Virus record (IMG/VR): IMGVR_UViG_3300014515_000027
DNA from: a virus
Taxonomy: Duplodnaviria; Heunggongvirae; Uroviricota; Caudoviricetes
Strand: one strand, 5' to 3'
Length of the DNA: 8,834 nucleotides
Shown here: positions 826-6,220 of the stretch, in pieces
How the letters are laid out: every line of letters begins with the position of its first letter
How positions within the stretch are numbered: position 1 is the first letter of the stretch
The notes under the pieces: generated by a model
What the model saw: the letters and a program-made list of their open reading frames with translations, nothing else
The model's database searches: none
Told to the model about the DNA's origin: nothing
Program-made: the position numbers and the translations under genes

Positions 826-1396
826 TATCGCGTCCTCAACAATGAATTTTGTGATGCAGTGCCTGGTGCCTCCAGGTGACGTTAACCAGTTAACAATTAA
901 CGCCGGGTTAGTTGATGCTCGTTACGCCCGTAAAATACCGCCTTACTGCTTTAACTGTTCCGCGTGCGCATAGCCGCATTCACCGCATCACAAAATTCAC
1001 TTTAAAAAGGGCGGCAGAGCAGTCACGGAGTAAAACTGATACCGCCAAATGTCACCAGAAAATTGATAACAGAGGGCGTTGTAGCGGGGTTGTCACTTAA
1101 GCGTATGGTCAACCTGACAACCCGGTGCATTTTCTGGAGCAATGGAGGAAACCCCAGCCATACTTACCGCCGCGCCATTTCGCGGAGTGCCACAACCGGA
1201 AGCGCACGGTCGAACTAAATTTAACGACACCGTACAGAGAGACCAATTTCGCCGTGCGCTTTCGCGTTATGCCCTGACTTTTCAGGGACATATCCTTTCA
1301 GTAAGCTGTCAGTGCCGGATGCTCACCCGTGTCCGGCGCACGCACTCCACCTGACCCGTGGAGAACTCCTTAATTACCAACCCTCAGGAGGGTGAA

Positions 1397-1675
1397 ATGG
1401 ATAAAAAGCAAATTGAGGCCCTGCAATCTATTATTGAAGAACAAGATGAAGCTATCAGGATTCTTTCATATCGCACTGATATGATACTAAATATGCTTTC
1501 TGCATTAACGGCTGCGCTTGGTGGTACAAAAACAAACGTATACCGCGAAGTTGTTATTCAACAGATAGATAAATTTGAAAAAACCATACCAGGTATTAAT
1601 GCTCATCTTGCAGAACAAGAGAAAGACCATGCTCTTATGGCAATTTCTTCAGTAGCTCTCCCGAAAGTTGAGTAG
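1397..1675 (+). CDS. Hypothetical protein (92 aa), predicted coiled-coil/helical; rightward-oriented gene embedded in leftward-operon territory
   Basis: ATG at 1397 preceded by AGGAGGG (1386-1392). The track ORF begins at an upstream GTG (1358) that has no ribosome-binding site. AT-rich by eye. Its 3' end overlaps the convergent gene 1635..2036 by about 40 bp. Confidence 0.55.
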   Translation: MDKKQIEALQSIIEEQDEAIRILSYRTDMILNMLSALTAALGGTKTNVYREVVIQQIDKFEKTIPGINAHLAEQEKDHALMAISSVALPKVE

Positions 1676-2036
1676 TTTTAATTGTTGTTTTGAAATAATC
1701 ACTGCTTTCACATTTGAGTGATTTCATGGCAATCCAAATGCGGGCCTCTGTGCCTGCATTTGGTTCCAGTTGCTGTAGACGTTTTGCGTCTTCCAAAAGT
1801 AAGGCGATAATGTGTTTCAGCTTCTCATCATTTGCTTGATTCTTGTTTTCAGGCGAATTCTGTCCGCCGAATAGGCGCTTCTCTTCATACAGACCTATAA
1901 AGGCACGACGCACGTTACCGGATATAGTATCGATGGTTTCCTTTTCTACGGTACTCAGGTCAAGAGTCGCCAGTTGAGAGCGAACCACATTCGATGCCAT
2001 TTCCTGGAATGGTACTGGTAAATCTTTAAATTCCAT
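1635..2036 (-). CDS. Hypothetical protein (~133 aa), AT-rich accessory gene
   Basis: Internal ATG at 2036 has GAGG with a 6-nt spacer upstream (minus strand); the track start at 2048 has no ribosome-binding site. Product begins MEFKDLPVPFQEMASNVVRSQLATLD... with no family motif recognised. Sits 11 nt downstream of the stop of 2048..2281. Confidence 0.6.
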   Translation of the reverse strand: MEFKDLPVPFQEMASNVVRSQLATLDLSTVEKETIDTISGNVRRAFIGLYEEKRLFGGQNSPENKNQANDEKLKHIIALLLEDAKRLQQLEPNAGTEARIWIAMKSLKCESSDYFKTTIKTTQLSGELLKKLP

Positions 2037-2047
2037 CGTCAACCTCA

Positions 2048-2281
2048 TCAGTCAGTGTTTCTGGTTAACCAGCGACGCGCGCCAGCTTCAGTTTTAAACG
2101 TTTTGCTTCTGGTATACGTCATCGCGGTGAACGTACCGTCCTGGTTGGGGAACACGCCACATACCAGAGATTCGCTGTTGCCAAGATCGATAGTATCCAT
2201 GCTGACCTCATTTCCCCTTAACGCCGGGGTAGCGGAACAAAAACCTGCTGCATAGTTATTAAAGTTGAACCCTGCCGTCAT
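2048..2281 (-). CDS. Small hypothetical protein (77 aa from the ATG at 2281, or 50 aa from the ATG at 2200); first gene downstream of the putative left operator
   Basis: Two candidate starts, each with a GAGG ribosome-binding site on the minus strand (9-nt spacer for 2281, 5-nt spacer for 2200). Forms a two-gene leftward unit with 1635..2036. Confidence 0.45.
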   Translation of the reverse strand: MTAGFNFNNYAAGFCSATPALRGNEVSMDTIDLGNSESLVCGVFPNQDGTFTAMTYTRSKTFKTEAGARRWLTRNTD

Positions 2282-2385
2282 GTTCTTACGCCTCGGGCTG
2301 GCTACTTAACCCCTGACCACTGCCTGGTAACTCGAAGTATTGCCCTGCATTCTGTGGGGCGGGGTGGGTTGGTATGAAAAGAAGG

Positions 2386-2424
2386 ATACCCATAGGTATT
2401 TAAAAAGTAAATACCCATGGGTAA
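2386..2424. promoter_or_regulatory. Putative left operator (OL-like): two TACC-N4-GGTA palindromes
   Basis: ATACC-CATA-GGTAT at 2386-2399 and the perfect palindrome TACCCATGGGTA at 2412-2423, centres about 25 bp apart, immediately beyond the 3' end of the repressor gene. Same half-site motif as the sites at 2904-2955. Confidence 0.45.
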
Positions 2425-2464
2425 ATTTTGCGGTGTCTTAACTGGTGACTAGTTGTTTGGTGAG

Positions 2465-2884
2465 CTATGATGCGTTTTGTGCTTTCTTTTTACGGATTTC
2501 TTCGTAGATCATATTGTAATACTGTTTTTTCTCTTCAAGAGTTTTTAATAATTTATCCGCTTCACTTTCTGGCAGTTCGTCTAAGAGATCTAAAAAAATA
2601 CGTTGTCGTGGCGTTAGAACCCTTGTTTCATAACTGGAGGCTGTGTTCGTTGATGATGAAACGATACCATCCATCCATCCCCGGGGTAACCCAAAGGACT
2701 CTTCGATAATCTCCACCATATCATCAGCGATCCGTTTTTTTCCCTTTTTCCCCTCTGGGTACAACATTCTTGATACATAAGAAGGCTCGCGCCCGATCTT
2801 TCTGGCCACGTTAACCGCTTTACCATCGCATTTCTCATCACGAATTTTGATGAGTTGCTGTCGTCTAAATTCATATTTGTCCAT
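2465..2884 (-). CDS. Prophage repressor, HTH DNA-binding protein without a LexA-like S24 peptidase domain (RacR-like)
   Basis: 139-aa ORF. Its N-terminal segment KAVNVARKIGREPSYVSRML looks like a helix-turn-helix; no peptidase-like C-terminal region. Divergent from the ydaS-like gene and flanked by operator palindromes. No Shine-Dalgarno before the ATG, but a TATTAT -10-like hexamer lies about 7 nt upstream, suggesting a leaderless transcript as for lambda cI. Confidence 0.8.
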   Translation of the reverse strand: MDKYEFRRQQLIKIRDEKCDGKAVNVARKIGREPSYVSRMLYPEGKKGKKRIADDMVEIIEESFGLPRGWMDGIVSSSTNTASSYETRVLTPRQRIFLDLLDELPESEADKLLKTLEEKKQYYNMIYEEIRKKKAQNAS

Positions 2885-2903
2885 AGGTAAATAATAGATG
2901 CGA

Positions 2904-2959
2904 TTACCGCAAGGTAAACAACCTGTGGGTATTGGCTTTTGTTTACCTGCGGGTATTCT
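2904..2959. promoter_or_regulatory. Putative right operator/promoter region (OR-like): three TACC-N4-GGTA sites overlapping a candidate rightward promoter
   Basis: TTACC-GCAA-GGTAA (2904-2917), aACC-TGTG-GGTAt (2920-2932) and TACC-TGCG-GGTA (2944-2955). Candidate rightward promoter: -35 TTGGCT (2932-2937), 16-nt spacer, -10 TATTCT (2954-2959), upstream of AAGGAG (2973-2978) and the ATG at 2985. Confidence 0.5.
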
Positions 2960-2984
2960 TTGCTGTGTTTACTAAGGAGTAGCT

Positions 2985-3266
2985 ATGGAAGAATTAAGAA
3001 TATTTCTCAATTCTCTTTCGTCAGATGAACAGCGTATGTTTGCATGCGAGTGTGGTACCAGCATCGGTTATCTAAGAAAGGCATTGAGTAAAGGTCAAGT
3101 GTTAGGGGCATCGTTATGTGTCCTTATTGAGCGAGCCAGTAATGGTGAAGTTACACGTCAGCAACTAAGGCCTTTTGATTGGATGAATATTTGGCCCGAG
3201 CTGGAAGATACCAAAACGTTAACACAACCACTTTCTAGGAGCTTGATTCATGAAAATCAAGCATGA
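2985..3266 (+). CDS. ydaS: YdaS-like Cro-type HTH protein
   Basis: 93 aa with a strong AAGGAG ribosome-binding site. Motifs CGTSIGYLRKALS ... EVTRQQLRPFDW...WPE match my recollection of the YdaS/Cro-like family. First gene of the rightward operon, divergent from the repressor. Confidence 0.7.
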   Translation: MEELRIFLNSLSSDEQRMFACECGTSIGYLRKALSKGQVLGASLCVLIERASNGEVTRQQLRPFDWMNIWPELEDTKTLTQPLSRSLIHENQA

Positions 3267-3675
3267 ACACATCCGCATGGCGATGAATGCCTGGGCGCGT
3301 CCTGATGGCGAAAAAGTTCCAGCAGCTGGAATAACCCAGGCTTATTTTGAGTTGGGTATGACGTTCCCGGAACTGTATGACGACAGCCATCCGGAAGCCC
3401 TGGCTCGCAATACCCAGAAAATTTTCCGCTGGGTAGAGAAAGCCCCCCCTGATGCTGTTGAAAAAATGCAGGCTCTGTTACCGGCGATCGAAAAGGCGAT
3501 GCCGCCTTTGCTGGTGGCCCGTATGCGCAGCCACAGTTCTGAATATTACCGTGAGATCGTCGAACGGAGGGATCGGCTGGTGAAGGATGTCGATGATTTT
3601 GTTGCGTCAGCGGTTGTTTTGTATGACCAGATGAATCGCGGCGGCCCGGCAGGGAATGCTGTGGTGATGCACTAA
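3250..3675 (+). CDS. ydaT: YdaT-like protein (reported CII-equivalent; toxic when derepressed)
   Basis: 141 aa beginning MKIKHEHI..., as I recall for YdaT. Start overlaps the ydaS-like stop by 17 nt; AGGAG at 3237-3241. Confidence 0.7.
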   Translation: MKIKHEHIRMAMNAWARPDGEKVPAAGITQAYFELGMTFPELYDDSHPEALARNTQKIFRWVEKAPPDAVEKMQALLPAIEKAMPPLLVARMRSHSSEYYREIVERRDRLVKDVDDFVASAVVLYDQMNRGGPAGNAVVMH

Positions 3676-3697
3676 AAGCACGGTGTTCGGGGGTTTT

Positions 3698-4660
3698 ATG
3701 AGCAGCAAGCTTCATGGTCTTGTCTGGGAAGGGTGCGCCTTCACCGGCATGATCTTATCCAGGGTGGCGGTTATGGCCCGTCTTGCAGACTACAGCAATG
3801 ACGAGGGCGTGTCATGGCCTGCCATTGAAACTATCCGGCGTCAGATCGGTGCAAGAAGTGAATCCACAGTGAAATCGGCTATTGCAGAACTGGCGAAAGA
3901 GGGCTGGCTGACGAAGGAAGAGCGTAAGGTCGGTGGGCGTAATGTAAGCAATATCTATCGGCTTAATGTGGAAAAACTCGAAGCAGCTGCGGCGGCGGCG
4001 CGTGAGTCATATAAACCGAAAAGAAAAATTAGCCCGGCAAAAAATGACCCGTTAACAGTTGACCCGTCAAATATTGACCCCTCAACGGTTGACCCGTCAA
4101 ATTTTGATGGATCAACTGTTGATAAAAAACTGCCGATTAGGGGGGCGATGATTGACCCCGATCCGTCAGTATTAAAACCTGATCCGTCAGATAAAAGATC
4201 TTCTTGTCCGGACGCTTCGCAACCGGACCCGCAGACGGCTGAACAGGATTTTTTAACCCGACACCCTGACGCGGTTGTGTTCAGTGCGAAAAAACGCCAG
4301 TGGGGAAGTCAGGAAGATTTGGTGTGCGCACAGTGGATCTGGGGACGAATCGTGAGTCTTTACGAGCAGGCGGCCAGCTATGATGGCGAGATCACTAGAC
4401 CGAAAGAACCCAACTGGACAGCATGGGCCAATGACGTTCGCACAATGCGGATGCTGGATGGCAGAACTCACAGACAAATTTGTGAAATGTTTGGGCGTCT
4501 CCAGCGGGATTCGTTCTGGGTAAAAAACATCATGAGTCCGGCAAAACTCCGGGAAAAATGGGATGAACTGGTTATCCGCCTGGGGCGTTCGCCTGCGCAG
4601 CGTTGCGTGAATCACATTTCTGAACCGGACACTGAAATACCGCCGGGATTCAGGGGGTGA
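3698..4660 (+). CDS. Phage replication initiation protein (N-terminal HTH domain; DnaT/O-like role), carrying internal repeats
   Basis: ATG at 3698 after a GGGGG run (3689-3693); the track start at 3683 is a GTG. N-terminal HTH-like segment VSWPAIETIRRQIGARSESTVKSAIAELAKEGWL. Lies immediately upstream of the DnaC-like gene, as O sits before P in lambda. Contains DP(L/S)(T/N)(V/I) peptide repeats encoded by the 15-bp DNA repeats at 4045-4104. Confidence 0.8.
   Translation: MSSKLHGLVWEGCAFTGMILSRVAVMARLADYSNDEGVSWPAIETIRRQIGARSESTVKSAIAELAKEGWLTKEERKVGGRNVSNIYRLNVEKLEAAAAAARESYKPKRKISPAKNDPLTVDPSNIDPSTVDPSNFDGSTVDKKLPIRGAMIDPDPSVLKPDPSDKRSSCPDASQPDPQTAEQDFLTRHPDAVVFSAKKRQWGSQEDLVCAQWIWGRIVSLYEQAASYDGEITRPKEPNWTAWANDVRTMRMLDGRTHRQICEMFGRLQRDSFWVKNIMSPAKLREKWDELVIRLGRSPAQRCVNHISEPDTEIPPGFRG
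4045..4134. repeat. Tandem 15-bp direct repeats (TGACCCGTCAA-N4 consensus) inside the initiator gene; candidate iterons/origin
   Basis: TGACCC at 4045, 4060, 4075 and 4090 with exact 15-bp period; degenerate TGAT units at 4105 and 4120. Followed by two GATCCGTCAG copies (4151-4160, 4172-4181) and A/T-rich runs. Confidence 0.55.
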
Positions 4661-4666
4661 CGTGTC

Positions 4667-5413
4667 ATGAAAAACATTGCGGCAGTTGGGGTTCTTGAAC
4701 GTATTCGCAGACTTGCACCACAGGGGTCGGTTCCACCGTACCGGACGGTGGAGGAGTGGCGGGAATGGCAACTTGCTGAAGGACGAAAACGCAGCGAGGA
4801 GATTAACCGCCAGAATCGCCAGTTGCGGGTGGAAAAAATCCTGAATCGTTCGGGCATCCAGCCTCTGCACAGCAAATGCTCGTTTGCAAATTATCAGGTG
4901 CAGAACGACGGGCAAAAATACGCGCTGAGCCAGGCCAAATCCATAGCTGACGAACTGATGACCGGGTGCACGAATTTTGTGTTCAGCGGTAAAACCGGCA
5001 CCGGGAAAAATCACCTTGCAGCGGCGATGGGCAACCGGCTGATGGTGAAGGGGCGCAGCGTGATTATCGTCACCGTGTCTGACGTCATGAGCGTGTTGCA
5101 TGACAGCTACGACAACGGCAAATCCGGGGAAAAATTTTTACAGGAGCTTTGCGGGGTTGATTTGCTGGTCCTGGATGAAATAGGCGTTCAGCGGGAGACG
5201 AAAAACGAGCAGGTGGTATTGCACCAGATAATTGATCGCCGGACAGCATCACTGTGCAGTGTCGGGATGTTAACAAACCTGAATCATGCCGCAATGAGTA
5301 CGCTTCTTGGTGAGAGGATTATGGACCGCATGACCATGAACGGTGGTCGATGGGTGACGTTTAACTGGGATAGCTGGCGTCCAAATGTCAGCAATATGAG
5401 GGTTGTGAAGTAA
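4667..5413 (+). CDS. DnaC-like helicase loader (AAA+ ATPase, IstB/DnaC family)
   Basis: 248 aa. Walker A GKTGTGKNHLAAAMG and Walker B LLVLDEIG are visible. GGGGG ribosome-binding site at 4653-4657. Start is 7 nt after the initiator stop. Confidence 0.9.
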   Translation: MKNIAAVGVLERIRRLAPQGSVPPYRTVEEWREWQLAEGRKRSEEINRQNRQLRVEKILNRSGIQPLHSKCSFANYQVQNDGQKYALSQAKSIADELMTGCTNFVFSGKTGTGKNHLAAAMGNRLMVKGRSVIIVTVSDVMSVLHDSYDNGKSGEKFLQELCGVDLLVLDEIGVQRETKNEQVVLHQIIDRRTASLCSVGMLTNLNHAAMSTLLGERIMDRMTMNGGRWVTFNWDSWRPNVSNMRVVK

Positions 5414-5434: not shown

Positions 5435-6205
5435 ATGGAAACCGTATCTGACGCACTGAAAGCACTGAAAAAAGCCTCTTCACATGTGGTGGCAGCTCGC
5501 CTTGGAATCAGTCGTGAAGAGGCTGTCAACGAGCTGTGGGAACTCAAAAGAAAAGGCGTCGTTGATAAAACTGGTCACACCTGGTTTCTGGCTGGCGAAG
5601 GTGAATCCCGGGTAACCGAAGAGCGGCCAGTAAAATCTGAAGCACAGGATATGCTGACCGGGGAGGTCGAACAAAAAGTTACCGCAGACATGATGATTGA
5701 GTTTATCGGTCAGGATGGGGCTAAAACGTGTGAGGAACTGGCGGGTAAGTTCGGTGTCAGTACTCGCAAGGTTGCTTCCACGCTGGCGGTGGTAACCGCA
5801 ACGGGGCGGCTGGCACGCGTTAATCAGAACGGTAAATTTCGTTACTGCATGCCGGGCGATAATTTACCAGCAGAGTCGAAAGCCGCGCTGGTAACGGAAA
5901 GTGATGGTAAGGCCTTTCCTCAGCCAGCAGGTGCTGCGTTACCAGTCCGGGAAGCCGCAACACAGGAAGAAATTAAAACAGAAACTGTGGCGGACATTGT
6001 GCAGCCGTTGCCATCGTTTACCGAAACGCAAGCAGATGAGCTGATTTTTCCGTCCCTTCGCAGGGCAAACCTGGCGCTGCGCAGGGCGAAAAGTGATGTT
6101 CAGAAGTGGGAGCGAGTCTGCGCCGCGCTGCGGGAGCTGAACAAGCACCGGGATATTGTTCGACAGATTACTGATTCTTCCCGCCGTGTTGTATCGGAAA
6201 AGTGA
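5435..6205 (+). CDS. Hypothetical prophage protein with two winged-helix-like segments
   Basis: 256 aa. GGAGG at 5421-5425 precedes the ATG. Two segments resemble each other: VVAARLGISREEAVNELWELKRKGVV and CEELAGKFGVSTRKVASTLAVVTATGRLARV. Confidence 0.65.
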   Translation: METVSDALKALKKASSHVVAARLGISREEAVNELWELKRKGVVDKTGHTWFLAGEGESRVTEERPVKSEAQDMLTGEVEQKVTADMMIEFIGQDGAKTCEELAGKFGVSTRKVASTLAVVTATGRLARVNQNGKFRYCMPGDNLPAESKAALVTESDGKAFPQPAGAALPVREAATQEEIKTETVADIVQPLPSFTETQADELIFPSLRRANLALRRAKSDVQKWERVCAALRELNKHRDIVRQITDSSRRVVSEK

Positions 6206-6220
6206 TTGCCGGAGGCGCTT

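What the first reader, a model, noticed from the sequence alone, without database searches (positions are those of the whole stretch)
2386..2959. Repressor flanked by five TACC-N4-GGTA operator palindromes, in a lambda-like OL/OR arrangement
Five sites share the same inverted half-site motif: two downstream of the repressor gene (2386-2399, 2412-2423) and three between the repressor and the ydaS-like gene (2904-2917, 2920-2932, 2944-2955). The right-hand sites overlap a candidate rightward promoter (-35 TTGGCT, -10 TATTCT). The repressor ATG has no Shine-Dalgarno but sits about 7 nt after a TATTAT hexamer, which fits a leaderless maintenance transcript like lambda cI from PRM. Together this predicts a complete genetic switch readable from sequence alone.
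Basis: seen in the sequence. Interest (0 to 1): 0.5.

Follow-up and report, generated by a model that had tools for sequence, protein, structure and literature searches.

The report
Prophage repressor operators, lambda-like switch
The five TACC-N4-GGTA palindromes are real and are almost certainly the operator sites of a lambda-style on/off switch in an E. coli O157-type prophage; this is an ordinary kind of system, but this operator specificity was not found described in the papers searched.

Summary
There are four exact TACC-N4-GGTA sites and one one-mismatch site, against 0.08 exact sites expected, and none lies elsewhere in the window.

The first 72 residues of the repressor are an Xre-like HTH domain. 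I fetched 42 loci from gamma- and beta-proteobacteria that encode this domain. They carry 116 exact sites against 3.5 expected, and 112 of them fall in two places:
- Upstream of the repressor ATG, at about -73, -48 and -33.
- Downstream of the repressor, as a pair 25-26 bp apart flanking a TTGAC -35 hexamer.

The window and the cultured lambdoid phage mEp043 fit the same template. In mEp043 the downstream pair lies between cI and N.

A -10 hexamer sits 6-7 nt before the ATG in 27 of 42 loci, which supports a leaderless repressor mRNA. Loci with a changed recognition helix lack the sites.

The repressor has no S24 autocleavage domain. Its C-terminus resembles that of DicA, so I infer induction by an antirepressor, though none was found. 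The left promoter drives a ydfA-DicF-dicB operon.

YdaT is about 94% identical to the solved CP-933P protein, and its published binding site is present exactly.

Verdict: a new member of a known kind, of modest interest.

The parts
2387..2398 (.). OL1: operator TACCCATAGGTA. Its outer half-site overlaps the -10 of the leftward promoter PL.
   Evidence: Exact motif. It is the promoter-proximal member of the conserved downstream pair found in 33 of 42 related loci and in mEp043.
2412..2423 (.). OL2: operator TACCCATGGGTA, immediately upstream of the PL -35 hexamer.
   Evidence: Exact motif. It lies 25 bp centre to centre from OL1, as in the related loci.
2383..2411 (-). Predicted PL. On the minus strand: -35 TTTACT (2411..2406), a 17-bp spacer, then -10 TATCCT (2388..2383). 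It drives the ydfA-like / DicF / dicB operon leftward.
   Evidence: Read from the sequence. It occupies the same position as the TTGACn -35 and the TAnnnT -10 in the related loci. It also aligns position for position with Qin dicBp.
2465..2884 (-). Repressor gene, 139 aa. Residues 1-72 form an Xre-like HTH domain, 76-87 a disordered linker, and 92-137 a helical hairpin resembling the DicA C-terminus.
   Evidence: ORF list. AF2 model with pLDDT 86. Foldseek hits to phage repressors and C-proteins. PHROG 5736, transcriptional regulator. DicA C-terminus at E 2e-7 and NF007257 at E 1.9e-5.
2891..2918 (-). Predicted PRM. On the minus strand: -35 TTTACC (2918..2913), a 16-bp spacer, then -10 TATTAT (2896..2891). 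The predicted start is the A of the ATG at 2884, giving a leaderless mRNA.
   Evidence: Promoter scan. No Shine-Dalgarno sequence. A -10 hexamer 6-7 nt before the ATG in 27 of 42 loci.
2905..2916 (.). OR3: operator TACCGCAAGGTA, overlapping the -35 and spacer of PRM. Its centre is -26.5 from the ATG.
   Evidence: Exact motif. It matches the family position near -33, present in 33 of 42 loci.
2920..2931 (.). OR2: degenerate operator AACCTGTGGGTA (minus strand TACCCACAGGTT). Its centre is -41.5 from the PRM start, and it abuts the PR -35.
   Evidence: One-mismatch hit. It matches the family position near -48, present in 26 of 42 loci and exact in only one, always weakened on the same half-site.
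2944..2955 (.). OR1: operator TACCTGCGGGTA, overlapping the spacer and -10 of PR.
   Evidence: Exact motif. It matches the family position near -73, present in 37 of 42 loci and exact in 34.
2932..2959 (+). Predicted PR: -35 TTGGCT (2932-2937), a 16-bp spacer, then -10 TATTCT (2954-2959). It is followed by the Shine-Dalgarno sequence AAGGAG (2974-2979) and the cro-like ATG at 2985.
   Evidence: Read from the sequence. In the family the -35 is TTGAC/TTGnnn directly after OR2, and the -10 is TAAACT/TATATT/TAATAT overlapping OR1.
2985..3266 (+). Cro-like (YdaS-like) gene, 93 aa.
   Evidence: Pfam YdaS_toxin, E 9e-6, below the gathering score. PHROG 35. PDB Cro entries 8c7k and 8co2 at E 1e-10. 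Orthologues lie divergent to the repressor in most related loci.
3243..3260 (.). YdaT (CII-like) binding site TTGATTCATGAAAATCAA, at the ydaS/ydaT junction. This is the predicted PRE-type control site.
   Evidence: Exact match to the TTGATT-N6-AATCAA site footprinted for CP-933P YdaT (PMC9986795).
3250..3675 (+). YdaT, a CII-like regulator of 141 aa.
   Evidence: About 94% identical to CP-933P YdaT, PDB 8bt1. Pfam YdaT_toxin. PHROG 163, CII-like.
2048..2203 (-). ydfA-like (DUF1391) gene, the first gene of the PL operon. The longest ORF runs to 2281; the Pfam match and RefSeq annotation point to a 51-aa product.
   Evidence: Pfam DUF1391, E 7e-27, covering residues 29-75 of the 77-aa ORF. RefSeq annotation of the same gene.
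1009..1060 (-). DicF small RNA, inside the leftward operon controlled by PL/OL.
   Evidence: Rfam RF00039, 77 bits against a gathering score of 48. dicB is annotated further left in the same prophage.

Best explanation
The five TACC-N4-GGTA palindromes are the operators of a lambdoid immunity switch in an E. coli O157:H7-type prophage. The extended consensus is tTACC-YRYR-GGTAa.

**Components.** The 139-aa repressor binds through an Xre-like HTH domain whose recognition helix reads SYVSRMLY. By analogy, the divergent YdaS-like Cro binds the same sites.

**Maintenance state (inferred).** Repressor dimers occupy OR1 and OR2. OR1 overlaps the PR -10 and OR2 abuts the PR -35, so the cro/ydaT/replication operon is shut off. 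Dimers on OL1 and OL2 bracket the -35 and -10 of PL. This shuts off the ydfA-DicF-dicB operon, which encodes cell-division inhibitors.

**Autoregulation (inferred).** The repressor's own mRNA starts at its ATG, from PRM (TTTACC-16-TATTAT). OR2 is centred at -41.5 from that start, where a bound dimer could contact RNA polymerase. OR3 overlaps the PRM -35, so its occupancy at high repressor concentration, or by Cro, would turn PRM down.

**Establishment (inferred).** YdaT binds its site at 3243-3260 and provides a CII-like route to establish repression.

**Induction (inferred).** The repressor has a DicA-like C-terminus in place of an S24 peptidase domain. Induction is therefore expected to go through an antirepressor, or through Cro-driven bistable switching, not through RecA-stimulated self-cleavage.

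**What is shown and what is not.** The motif enrichment, the conserved geometry, the promoter elements, the protein homologies and the fold are shown here. Which protein binds which site, the order of occupancy, activation of PRM, and the induction route are inferred.
For: **Enrichment in the window.** 4 exact sites against 0.08 expected.

**Enrichment in relatives.** The 42 loci total 253 kb and carry 116 exact sites against 3.5 expected. Of these, 60 lie in the upstream region and 52 in downstream pairs. Only 4 lie elsewhere, and 3 of those have a degenerate partner.

**Fixed offsets from the repressor ATG.** About -73 in 37 of 42 loci, about -48 in 26 of 42 and about -33 in 33 of 42. The window's offsets are -71, -47 and -32.

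**Promoter elements.** Family-wide alignments show a PR -35 (TTGAC) directly after OR2 and a PR -10 overlapping OR1. A PRM -10 ends 6-7 nt before the ATG, with a Shine-Dalgarno-like tetramer in only 6 loci. The PL architecture of operator, TTGACn, then operator overlapping the -10 is present in 33 of 42 loci.

**Phage mEp043.** Sites at -72, -47 and -32 of the annotated cI, plus a pair between cI and N.

**Co-inheritance and covariation.** The Cro-like protein is inherited together with the sites. The recognition helix is conserved wherever the sites occur. It is altered in the three loci that lack them: L023, L039 and L043.

**Protein fold.** HTH fold with pLDDT 86. The best structural matches are phage repressors and C-proteins.

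**Qin comparison.** dicBp aligns position for position with the left pair, but with different half-sites.

**Experimental precedent.** CP-933P has a leaderless repressor, OR and OL operators, and YdaS/YdaT acting as Cro/CII (PMC8630535). YdaT here is about 94% identical to that protein, and its site is present exactly.
Against: - No binding, footprint or transcription-start data exist for this repressor or for any member of its DNA-binding-domain family. None was found in the searched literature.
- The PR and PL hexamers in the window are weak, 4 of 6 matches each, and fell below the promoter scan's threshold.
- OR2 and OR3 are only 15 bp apart centre to centre. That puts them on roughly opposite faces of the helix, with extended footprints touching, so lambda-style pairwise cooperativity cannot simply be assumed.
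- Co-conservation of the repressor domain, Cro and the sites cannot show which protein binds which site.
- No antirepressor was found. There is no Rem homologue in the window or in 40 kb of the same prophage, and no LexA box in the window.
- The left pair also folds into a strong RNA hairpin followed by a U-rich tail. Its role may therefore not be purely that of an operator.
Confidence: 0.85

Rival explanations
1. The left pair (2387-2423) is mainly the intrinsic terminator of the repressor transcript. The two palindromes would pair with each other in the RNA and be followed by a U-rich tail. They would not be operators.
For: The terminator scan reports a 16-pair stem with a 5-nt loop followed by TCCTTCTTTT on the minus strand, 42 nt after the repressor stop codon. 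The RNA fold gives -22.2 kcal/mol with a z-score of -6.25.
Against: - Any two copies of a palindrome are complementary to each other, so the hairpin follows automatically from having two operators.
- In most related loci the pair is followed by a -10-like TAnnnT with no T-run. The pair often lies 1-2.5 kb beyond the repressor gene, next to the following operon.
- In mEp043 the pair sits just upstream of N.
- The -35 hexamer between the two sites is conserved, which an RNA loop does not explain.

A dual role in this particular prophage is not excluded; I put that at about 0.3.
Confidence: 0.07
2. The sites are recognised only by the Cro-like YdaS protein or by some other factor, and the 139-aa protein regulates something else.
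For: The Cro-like protein is conserved together with the sites just as the repressor domain is. Co-occurrence alone therefore cannot separate the two proteins.
Against: - The Klebsiella loci L005, L007, L009 and L010 have no divergent Cro-like ORF where it is found in the other loci. They still keep the site at -73 and the downstream pair.
- The three loci whose repressor recognition helix has changed have lost the sites.
- Site offsets are fixed relative to the repressor ATG. The cro start varies from 82 to 111 nt upstream.
- In all characterised lambdoid switches both proteins share the operators. For CP-933P this is documented in PMC8630535.
Confidence: 0.05
3. The clustering is a chance or compositional effect, or a remnant repeat with no function.
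For: None beyond the fact that no experiment has been done.
Against: - None of 200 shuffles reached the observed count.
- Across 253 kb of related loci there is a 33-fold excess of sites. 112 of the 116 lie in two positionally conserved clusters, in loci ranging from Enterobacterales to Neisseria and Xanthomonas.
Confidence: 0.01

Closest known systems
Phage lambda immunity region (cI, cro, OR1-3, OL1-3, PR, PRM, PL, cII/PRE)
   Same: - Divergent repressor and cro genes about 100 bp apart, with three operators overlapping PR and PRM.
- A second operator cluster on a leftward early promoter.
- A leaderless repressor mRNA, predicted here.
- The middle operator is centred near -42 of PRM and the outer one near -66. 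The lambda values are from my own recollection.
- A CII-type activator encoded after cro.
   Different: - The operators are 12-16 bp TACC-N4-GGTA palindromes, unrelated to lambda's 17-bp sites.
- OL has two sites, not three.
- OR2 and OR3 are 15 bp apart centre to centre, not 23.
- The repressor is 139 aa with no S24 autocleavage domain.
- The Cro and CII equivalents are YdaS- and YdaT-family proteins.
- PL drives ydfA-DicF-dicB here. In the relative mEp043 it precedes N.
CP-933P (Sp12) switch of E. coli O157:H7: PaaR2, YdaS, YdaT (Jurenas et al. 2021, PMC8630535; Prolic-Kalinsek et al. 2023, PMC9986795)
   Same: - Same host lineage and same gene order.
- The repressor is leaderless; this was shown by experiment in CP-933P.
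- OR and OL operator sets.
- YdaS acts as Cro and YdaT as CII.
- YdaT in the window is about 94% identical to the solved CP-933P protein, and its TTGATT-N6-AATCAA site is present exactly.
   Different: - The CP-933P operators are 18-bp palindromes with a GTTTAGTAA half-site. That sequence is not enriched in the window.
- The YdaS-like Cro here is only distantly related to the solved Cro chains 8c7k and 8co2 (E 1e-10). I did not confirm which phage those entries come from.
- No paaA2-parE2 toxin-antitoxin genes follow the repressor.
- The two prophages are therefore predicted to be heteroimmune. Homology between this repressor and PaaR2 could not be tested, because no PaaR2 sequence was available.
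Qin prophage DicA / DicC / dicBp (Ragunathan and Vanderpool 2023, PMC10448788)
   Same: - A short repressor of about 135 aa that is not cleaved.
- The C-terminal 46 residues are 33% identical to those of DicA (E 2e-7).
- The downstream promoter has the same layout, operator / -35 / operator overlapping the -10, and drives ydfA-ydfB-ydfC-DicF-dicB.
   Different: [quoted passage not shown]
- The half-sites differ: TTAG..CTAA in Qin, as I read them from the alignment.
- The Cro-like proteins show no significant similarity (E 0.054).
- The Qin antirepressor Rem has no homologue in the window or in 40 kb of the same prophage.
Gifsy-type and SPC32H-type short repressors inactivated by antirepressors (Lemire et al. 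2011, PMC3121763; PDB 5d50)
   Same: - A repressor of about 136 aa with no cleavage motif.
- The best Foldseek match of the model is the SPC32H Rep-Ant complex, 5d50.
- Lemire et al. place DicA in the same group of repressors.
   Different: - There is no LexA box and no dinI-antirepressor operon downstream of the replication genes in the window.
- No antirepressor was identified.
- Sequence similarity to 5d50 is low, 17-24% identity over the structural alignment.
Escherichia phage mEp043 cI (229 aa, S24-type) and other LexA-family repressors sharing this N-terminal domain
   Same: - The DNA-binding domain is 76% identical, with an identical SYVSRMLY recognition helix.
- Sites lie at -72, -47 and -32, with a pair 25 bp apart downstream.
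- Cross-immunity with the window's prophage is predicted.
   Different: - mEp043 cI carries an S24 peptidase C-terminal domain.
- mEp043 has lambda-type N and cII genes in place of ydfA/DicF and YdaT.
- Its operators have not been characterised either; no paper was found.

Membership tests
Lambdoid CI/Cro immunity switch | Divergent repressor and cro genes, with several operators in the short intergenic region overlapping two back-to-back promoters | tested here: met
   A 100-bp intergenic region holds three sites that overlap the predicted PR and PRM. The geometry is conserved in 42 loci and in mEp043.
Lambdoid CI/Cro immunity switch | A second operator cluster overlapping a leftward early promoter (OL/PL) | tested here: met
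   The pair at 2387-2423 brackets TTTACT-17-TATCCT. The same arrangement occurs in 33 of 42 loci. In mEp043 it lies between cI and N.
Lambdoid CI/Cro immunity switch | Repressor with a C-terminal S24/LexA-type autocleavage domain (RecA-dependent induction) | tested here: not met
   The protein is 139 aa with no Pfam S24 hit. Its C-terminus is a helical hairpin like that of DicA. Relatives with the same N-terminal domain do carry PF00717.
Lambdoid CI/Cro immunity switch | Leaderless repressor mRNA from the maintenance promoter | tested here: inconclusive
   The sequence evidence is strong. There is no Shine-Dalgarno sequence, and a -10 hexamer ends 6 nt before the ATG. The same holds in 27 of 42 loci, against at most 6 at control offsets. 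No transcription-start data were available.
Lambdoid CI/Cro immunity switch | Physical binding of repressor and Cro to the operators, and bistability | not testable with these tools
   This needs EMSA or footprinting and reporter assays.
CP-933P-type PaaR2/YdaS/YdaT switch | YdaT (CII equivalent) with a TTGATT-N6-AATCAA site at the ydaS/ydaT junction | tested here: met
   About 94% identical to PDB 8bt1. The site is present exactly at 3243-3260, in the position described in PMC9986795.
CP-933P-type PaaR2/YdaS/YdaT switch | Operators with a GTTTAGTAA half-site consensus | tested here: not met
   Two one-mismatch hits against 1.6 expected, with none forming a palindrome in the operator regions.
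CP-933P-type PaaR2/YdaS/YdaT switch | paaA2-parE2 toxin-antitoxin genes co-transcribed with the repressor | tested here: not met
   The repressor stop codon at 2465 is followed directly by the OL pair and the ydfA-like gene.
CP-933P-type PaaR2/YdaS/YdaT switch | Repressor homologous to PaaR2 | not tested
   No PaaR2 sequence was available to compare. No PDB sequence hit was found below E 0.07.
DicA/Gifsy-type short non-cleavable prophage repressors | About 135-aa repressor with no cleavage domain and a DicA-like C-terminal region | tested here: met
   BLASTP against K-12 DicA aligns residues 89-134 with 84-129 at 33% identity, E 2e-7. NF007257 positions 81-131 match at E 1.9e-5, far below the whole-protein cutoff.
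DicA/Gifsy-type short non-cleavable prophage repressors | DicA-type N-terminal DNA-binding domain | tested here: not met
   There is no alignment of the N-terminal 85 residues with DicA and no Pfam HTH_3 hit. The domain is shared instead with S24-type repressors.
DicA/Gifsy-type short non-cleavable prophage repressors | A cognate small antirepressor (Rem, GfoA or GftA type) encoded in the prophage | tested here: inconclusive
   tblastn with K-12 Rem found nothing in the window or in 40 kb of the same O157 prophage. There is no LexA box in the window. Only Rem was used as a probe, and antirepressors diverge quickly.
DicA/Gifsy-type short non-cleavable prophage repressors | Repressed leftward operon carrying ydfA, DicF and dicB | tested here: met
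   DUF1391. DicF at 77 bits. ydfB, ydfC and dicB are annotated in the same prophage.

The most novel reading that the evidence does not exclude
This locus may belong to a very widespread and uncharacterised phage immunity cassette. The cassette comprises a TACC-specific HTH domain, a YdaS-like Cro, a tripartite OR with fixed geometry and a deliberately weakened middle site, a two-site OL, and a leaderless repressor.

On this reading the cassette has kept a single operator specificity from Enterobacterales to Neisseria, Burkholderiales and Xanthomonas. Only the C-terminal induction module has been exchanged, between an S24 autocleaving domain and a DicA-like domain presumed to be an antirepressor target.

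If so, prophages of very different hosts would be mutually immune. The induction logic would also be a natural plug-in module. In this prophage the OL operator pair might additionally act as the terminator of the repressor transcript.
Probability: 0.4. Interest if true: 0.5.

Novelty: new member of a known kind. Interest (0 to 1): 0.35.

Why it matters
**Testable operator map.** The work gives a specific map of operators and promoters for an immunity type carried by at least 822 complete E. coli genomes, including many O157:H7 strains. It applies equally to phage mEp043 and to relatives across the proteobacteria.

**Control of cell-division inhibitors.** In this prophage the switch controls a DicF/dicB operon. 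Knowing what keeps that operon silent bears on host physiology.

**Domain swap.** The same DNA-binding domain is joined either to an S24 peptidase or to a DicA-like tail. This is a clean natural case for asking how induction logic is exchanged while operator specificity is kept.

**Cross-immunity.** It predicts cross-immunity between mEp043 and these prophages, which can be checked on plates.

**Limits.** None of this changes the general picture of lambdoid switches.

Tried and rejected
- **Terminator reading of the left pair.** The hairpin is real. However, the T-run is not conserved in relatives and the -35 hexamer inside the would-be loop is. I kept it only as a possible secondary role.
- **A sixth site over the repressor ATG.** On the minus strand TACCTATGGACA has two mismatches. 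The GGAC comes from the conserved MDK codons, and the upstream half is absent in other loci. I rejected it as chance.
- **Gifsy-style induction.** No LexA box lies in the window: 2 one-mismatch hits against 2.7 expected. The ORF after hok, 8013-8285, is unrelated to Rem. Rem has no tblastn hit in the window, L001 or L044. A DinI-like gene sits beyond the integrase in L044, but I saw nothing there to link it to this switch.
- **Sequence search of the PDB with the repressor.** Only noise, with a best E-value of 0.08 to Z-alpha domains.
- **Pfam on the repressor.** No hit.
- **Literature search for the operator sequences and for mEp043 regulation.** Nothing relevant.
- **Search for a PaaR2 sequence in crystallisation papers.** Not found. 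Homology to PaaR2 is therefore untested.
- **CP-933P operator half-site GTTTAGTAA.** Not enriched in the window.
Full report
**1. What the window is**

The window is the immunity and early region of a lambdoid prophage. The stretch 2280-3270 is 99.8-99.9% identical to many E. coli chromosomes, mostly O157:H7. In all, 822 complete genomes carry at least 80% of it.

Gene order:

| Feature | Coordinates |
|---|---|
| DicF sRNA | 1009-1060(-) |
| ORF of 137 aa | 1635-2048(-) |
| DUF1391/ydfA-like | 2048-2203(-) |
| Repressor, 139 aa | 2465-2884(-) |
| YdaS-like Cro | 2985-3266(+) |
| YdaT | 3250-3675(+) |
| O-like replication protein | 3683-4660(+) |
| DnaC-like replication protein | 4667-5413(+) |
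| DUF1627 | 5435-6205(+) |
| DUF977 | 6206-6646(+) |
| QueH | 6800-7486(+) |
| hok/sok | 7554-7882(+) |

In annotated copies of the same prophage, dicB, an exonuclease, xis and int lie further left.

**2. The observation**

- The pattern TACCNNNNGGTA occurs 4 times exactly, against 0.08 expected. None of 200 shuffles reached 4.
- Allowing one mismatch adds AACCTGTGGGTA at 2920-2931 and four scattered hits. That is 9 in total against 1.8 expected.
- No exact site lies outside the two clusters.

The repressor ATG (2884) has no Shine-Dalgarno sequence. On the minus strand, TATTAT ends 6 nt before it. The promoter scan found TTTACC-16-TATTAT there on its own.

**3. The repressor protein**

Pfam finds nothing. 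PHROG 5736, "transcriptional regulator", matches the full length.

An AlphaFold model with mean pLDDT 86 shows three parts:
- a helical N-terminal domain, residues 3-63;
- a disordered linker, residues 76-87;
- a C-terminal helical hairpin, residues 92-137.

The best Foldseek matches in the PDB are the Salmonella phage SPC32H repressor (5d50, 5d4z), restriction-modification controller C-proteins and other Xre-type HTH regulators.

The database search gave the key lead. The first ~72 residues are 50-80% identical to the N-termini of many 221-242-aa LexA/S24-family repressors in Salmonella, Klebsiella, Edwardsiella, Pantoea and others. They also match the N-termini of short 135-139-aa forms in Yersinia and Serratia. 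The domain is therefore shared, and the C-terminus is exchangeable.

The C-terminal 46 residues here are 33% identical to the C-terminus of Qin DicA (E 2e-7; NF007257 E 1.9e-5). The N-terminus does not align with DicA.

**4. The comparative test**

Using an alignment of the domain, I fetched 42 loci from one-genome-per-species contigs. They come from Enterobacterales, Aeromonas, Arsenophonus, Orbus, Neisseria, Burkholderiales, Nitrosomonas, Ferrovum, Xanthomonas and Stenotrophomonas.

Over 253,255 bp there are 116 exact TACC-N4-GGTA sites, against 3.5 expected from base composition:
- 60 lie between -90 and -28 of the repressor ATG.
- 52 lie in downstream pairs spaced 24-26 bp.
- 4 lie elsewhere, and 3 of those are pair members whose partner is degenerate.

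The upstream sites sit at fixed offsets:

| Site | Family offset | Loci with a site (of 42) | Exact | Window offset |
|---|---|---|---|---|
| OR1 | about -73 | 37 | 34 | -71 |
| OR2 | about -48 | 26 | 1 | -47 |
| OR3 | about -33 | 33 | 24 | -32 |

The site near -48 almost always reads TACC-N4-GGTT, -GGGA or -GGCC. The window's one-mismatch site, TACCCACAGGTT on the repressor strand, is therefore the family norm and not an accident.

**5. Promoters**

The aligned upstream regions show four conserved features.

- **PRM -10.** A -10-like hexamer (TAGAAT, TAAAAT, TATGAT and similar) ends 6-7 nt before the ATG in 27 of 42 loci. At any single control offset the count is at most 6. A Shine-Dalgarno-like tetramer is present in only 6 loci. 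A leaderless repressor mRNA therefore looks like a family trait. It has been shown by experiment for paaR2 of CP-933P (PMC8630535).
- **PRM -35.** The hexamer is the TTTACC of the OR3 half-site.
- **PR -35.** On the other strand, TTGAC/TTGnnn follows OR2 directly.
- **PR -10.** TAAACT, TATATT, TAATAT, or TATTCT in the window, overlaps the outer half of OR1.

The downstream pairs show the same layout. The first site is followed at once by TTGACn (TTTACT in the window). Seven or eight bases later comes the second site, whose outer half runs into TAnnnT (TATCCT in the window).

This is a promoter pointing away from the repressor gene, that is, PL. In the window it would start near 2376 and read into ydfA, DicF and dicB.

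Taking the ATG as the PRM start, the site centres are -26.5 (OR3), -41.5 (OR2) and -65.5 (OR1). From my own recollection, lambda OR2 and OR1 lie near -42 and -66 of PRM.

**6. Independent anchors**

- **mEp043.** This cultured lambdoid coliphage has annotated cI, Cro, cII and N genes. Its cI shares 76% of the domain and the identical SYVSRMLY helix. It has sites at -72, -47 (GGTT) and -32 of cI. It also has a 25-bp-spaced pair between cI and N.
- **Cro co-inheritance.** A Cro-like protein of the form MEELRxYLNSLS...CGTSIGYLRKALSK... lies divergent to the repressor in most of the 42 loci.
- **Recognition helix.** The three loci that lack the sites (L023, L039, L043) have changed helices: SYVNRIFY, ASISHMLY and ATISHLLL. 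The helix is SYVSRMLY or a close variant in most loci that carry the sites. L039 and L043 instead carry ATACCG...CGGTAT repeats with a wider spacing.
- **Qin.** The dicA-ydfA intergenic region of K-12 Qin aligns with the window's left region. It shows two operators bracketing TTGACC, with the second running into TAATCT, but with TTAG..CTAA half-sites. dicBp is repressed by DicA and drives ydfA-DicF-dicB (PMC10448788).

**7. Right-hand side of the switch**

YdaT is about 94% identical to CP-933P YdaT, PDB 8bt1. The 18-bp site footprinted for that protein, TTGATT-N6-AATCAA at the end of ydaS, is present exactly at 3243-3260 (PMC9986795).

The YdaS-like protein matches solved "Cro" chains 8c7k and 8co2 at E 1e-10.

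The CP-933P operator half-site GTTTAGTAA is not enriched here. This prophage is therefore a heteroimmune relative of CP-933P that shares its CII-type module.

**8. Mechanism**

*Shown.* The sites, their enrichment and conserved geometry, the promoter elements, the fold and the homologies.

*Inferred.*
- Repressor dimers on OR1/OR2 and OL1/OL2 shut PR and PL.
- OR2 is positioned to touch polymerase at PRM.
- OR3 overlaps the PRM -35 and gives negative autoregulation, or Cro-mediated shut-off.
- YdaT establishes repression.

OR2 and OR3 are only 15 bp apart. With 16-bp footprints they would touch, so binding there may be competitive and not cooperative. This is a difference from lambda that needs experiment.

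The protein has no S24 domain and has a DicA-like tail. RecA-stimulated self-cleavage is therefore excluded. An antirepressor, as for DicA/Rem and the Gifsy repressors (PMC10448788, PMC3121763), or Cro-driven spontaneous switching is the likely route. I found no Rem homologue and no LexA box, so this step remains open.

**9. Rivals**

The left pair forms a 16-bp RNA hairpin of -22.2 kcal/mol (z -6.25), followed by UCCUUCUUUU. It could terminate PRM transcripts.

Two copies of a palindrome always pair, so the hairpin follows from having two operators. The U-tail is absent in most relatives, and the -35 hexamer within the would-be loop is conserved. A terminator-only reading is therefore unlikely; a dual role in this prophage is possible.

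A Cro-only reading is weakened by two results. The Klebsiella loci keep sites without a Cro-like ORF in the usual position. The sites also track the repressor's recognition helix.

Chance is excluded.

**10. Novelty and score**

The kind of system is textbook. Two close experimental precedents exist in E. coli prophages: CP-933P and Qin.

Four points appear to be undescribed:
- this operator specificity;
- its fixed tripartite geometry with a built-in weak middle site;
- its spread across gamma- and beta-proteobacteria;
- the pairing of one DNA-binding domain with either an S24 or a DicA-like C-terminus.

The searches found nothing on it. However, the library lacks most subscription journals.

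I rate it a new member of a known kind, with interest 0.35.

Noticed in passing
window 1009-1060 (-): A DicF small RNA (Rfam RF00039, 77 bits) lies in the leftward operon. The predicted PL/OL therefore controls a cell-division inhibitor RNA. dicB lies further left in annotated copies of the prophage.
   Followed up: partly
window 7554-7882 (+): A sok antisense RNA (Rfam RF01794, 120 bits) overlaps a hok-type ORF. The ORF matches Pfam HOK_GEF only over the first 20 of 42 positions. After ...TALVT the sequence departs from what I recall of Hok, so hok may be frameshifted.
   Followed up: partly
window 3243-3260: An exact copy of the YdaT binding site TTGATT-N6-AATCAA footprinted in CP-933P lies at the ydaS/ydaT junction, overlapping the ydaT start codon. 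YdaT is about 94% identical to PDB 8bt1.
   Followed up: yes
window 2614-2874 (-), alternate frame; proteins P0010, P0019: Some E. coli database entries for this repressor begin with the alternate-frame peptide MNLDDSNSSKFVM... and switch into the repressor frame part-way through the N-terminal domain. These look like frameshifted alleles that would have lost the recognition helix.
   Followed up: no
L022, L026, L029, L030, L032, L035, L036, L038, L040-L042, about 82-85 nt upstream of the repressor ATG: In the beta-proteobacterial and Xanthomonas-group relatives, the cro-like ATG lies only about 6 nt after the predicted PR -10 and has no Shine-Dalgarno sequence. In these loci both genes of the switch may be leaderless.
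   Followed up: partly
window 2280-2380: The ~100 bp between the predicted PL start and the ydfA-like gene are 93-98% identical in many lambdoid phages with other immunity types. More than 3,700 E. coli genomes match at least part of the wider 2280-3270 query. This looks like a conserved leader of unknown role; it partly aligns with the Qin dicBp leader.
   Followed up: no
L039 and L043 (Advenella), about -60 to -30 from the repressor ATG: These distant relatives have changed recognition helices (ASISHMLY, ATISHLLL). In place of TACC-N4-GGTA they carry ATACCG...CGGTAT inverted repeats with a wider spacing. This hints at a related but distinct specificity.
   Followed up: no
L005, L007, L009-L011 (Klebsiella), upstream of the repressor: These loci keep the -73 site and the downstream pair. 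They lack the middle site and have no divergent Cro-like ORF in the usual position. The region between the sites reads TTTGCTATATTTT instead.
   Followed up: no
window 6800-7486 (+): An intact epoxyqueuosine reductase QueH gene (Pfam E 1e-65) lies in the prophage's rightward operon. In strain Z1626 the same region also carries a cytosine methyltransferase and an NgoMIV-type restriction enzyme.
   Followed up: no
L044 13548-13790: A DinI-like gene lies just outside the integrase end of the O157 prophage, next to NleG-like DUF1076 genes of a neighbouring prophage. In Gifsy phages dinI heads the antirepressor operon, but I saw no link to this switch here.
   Followed up: partly
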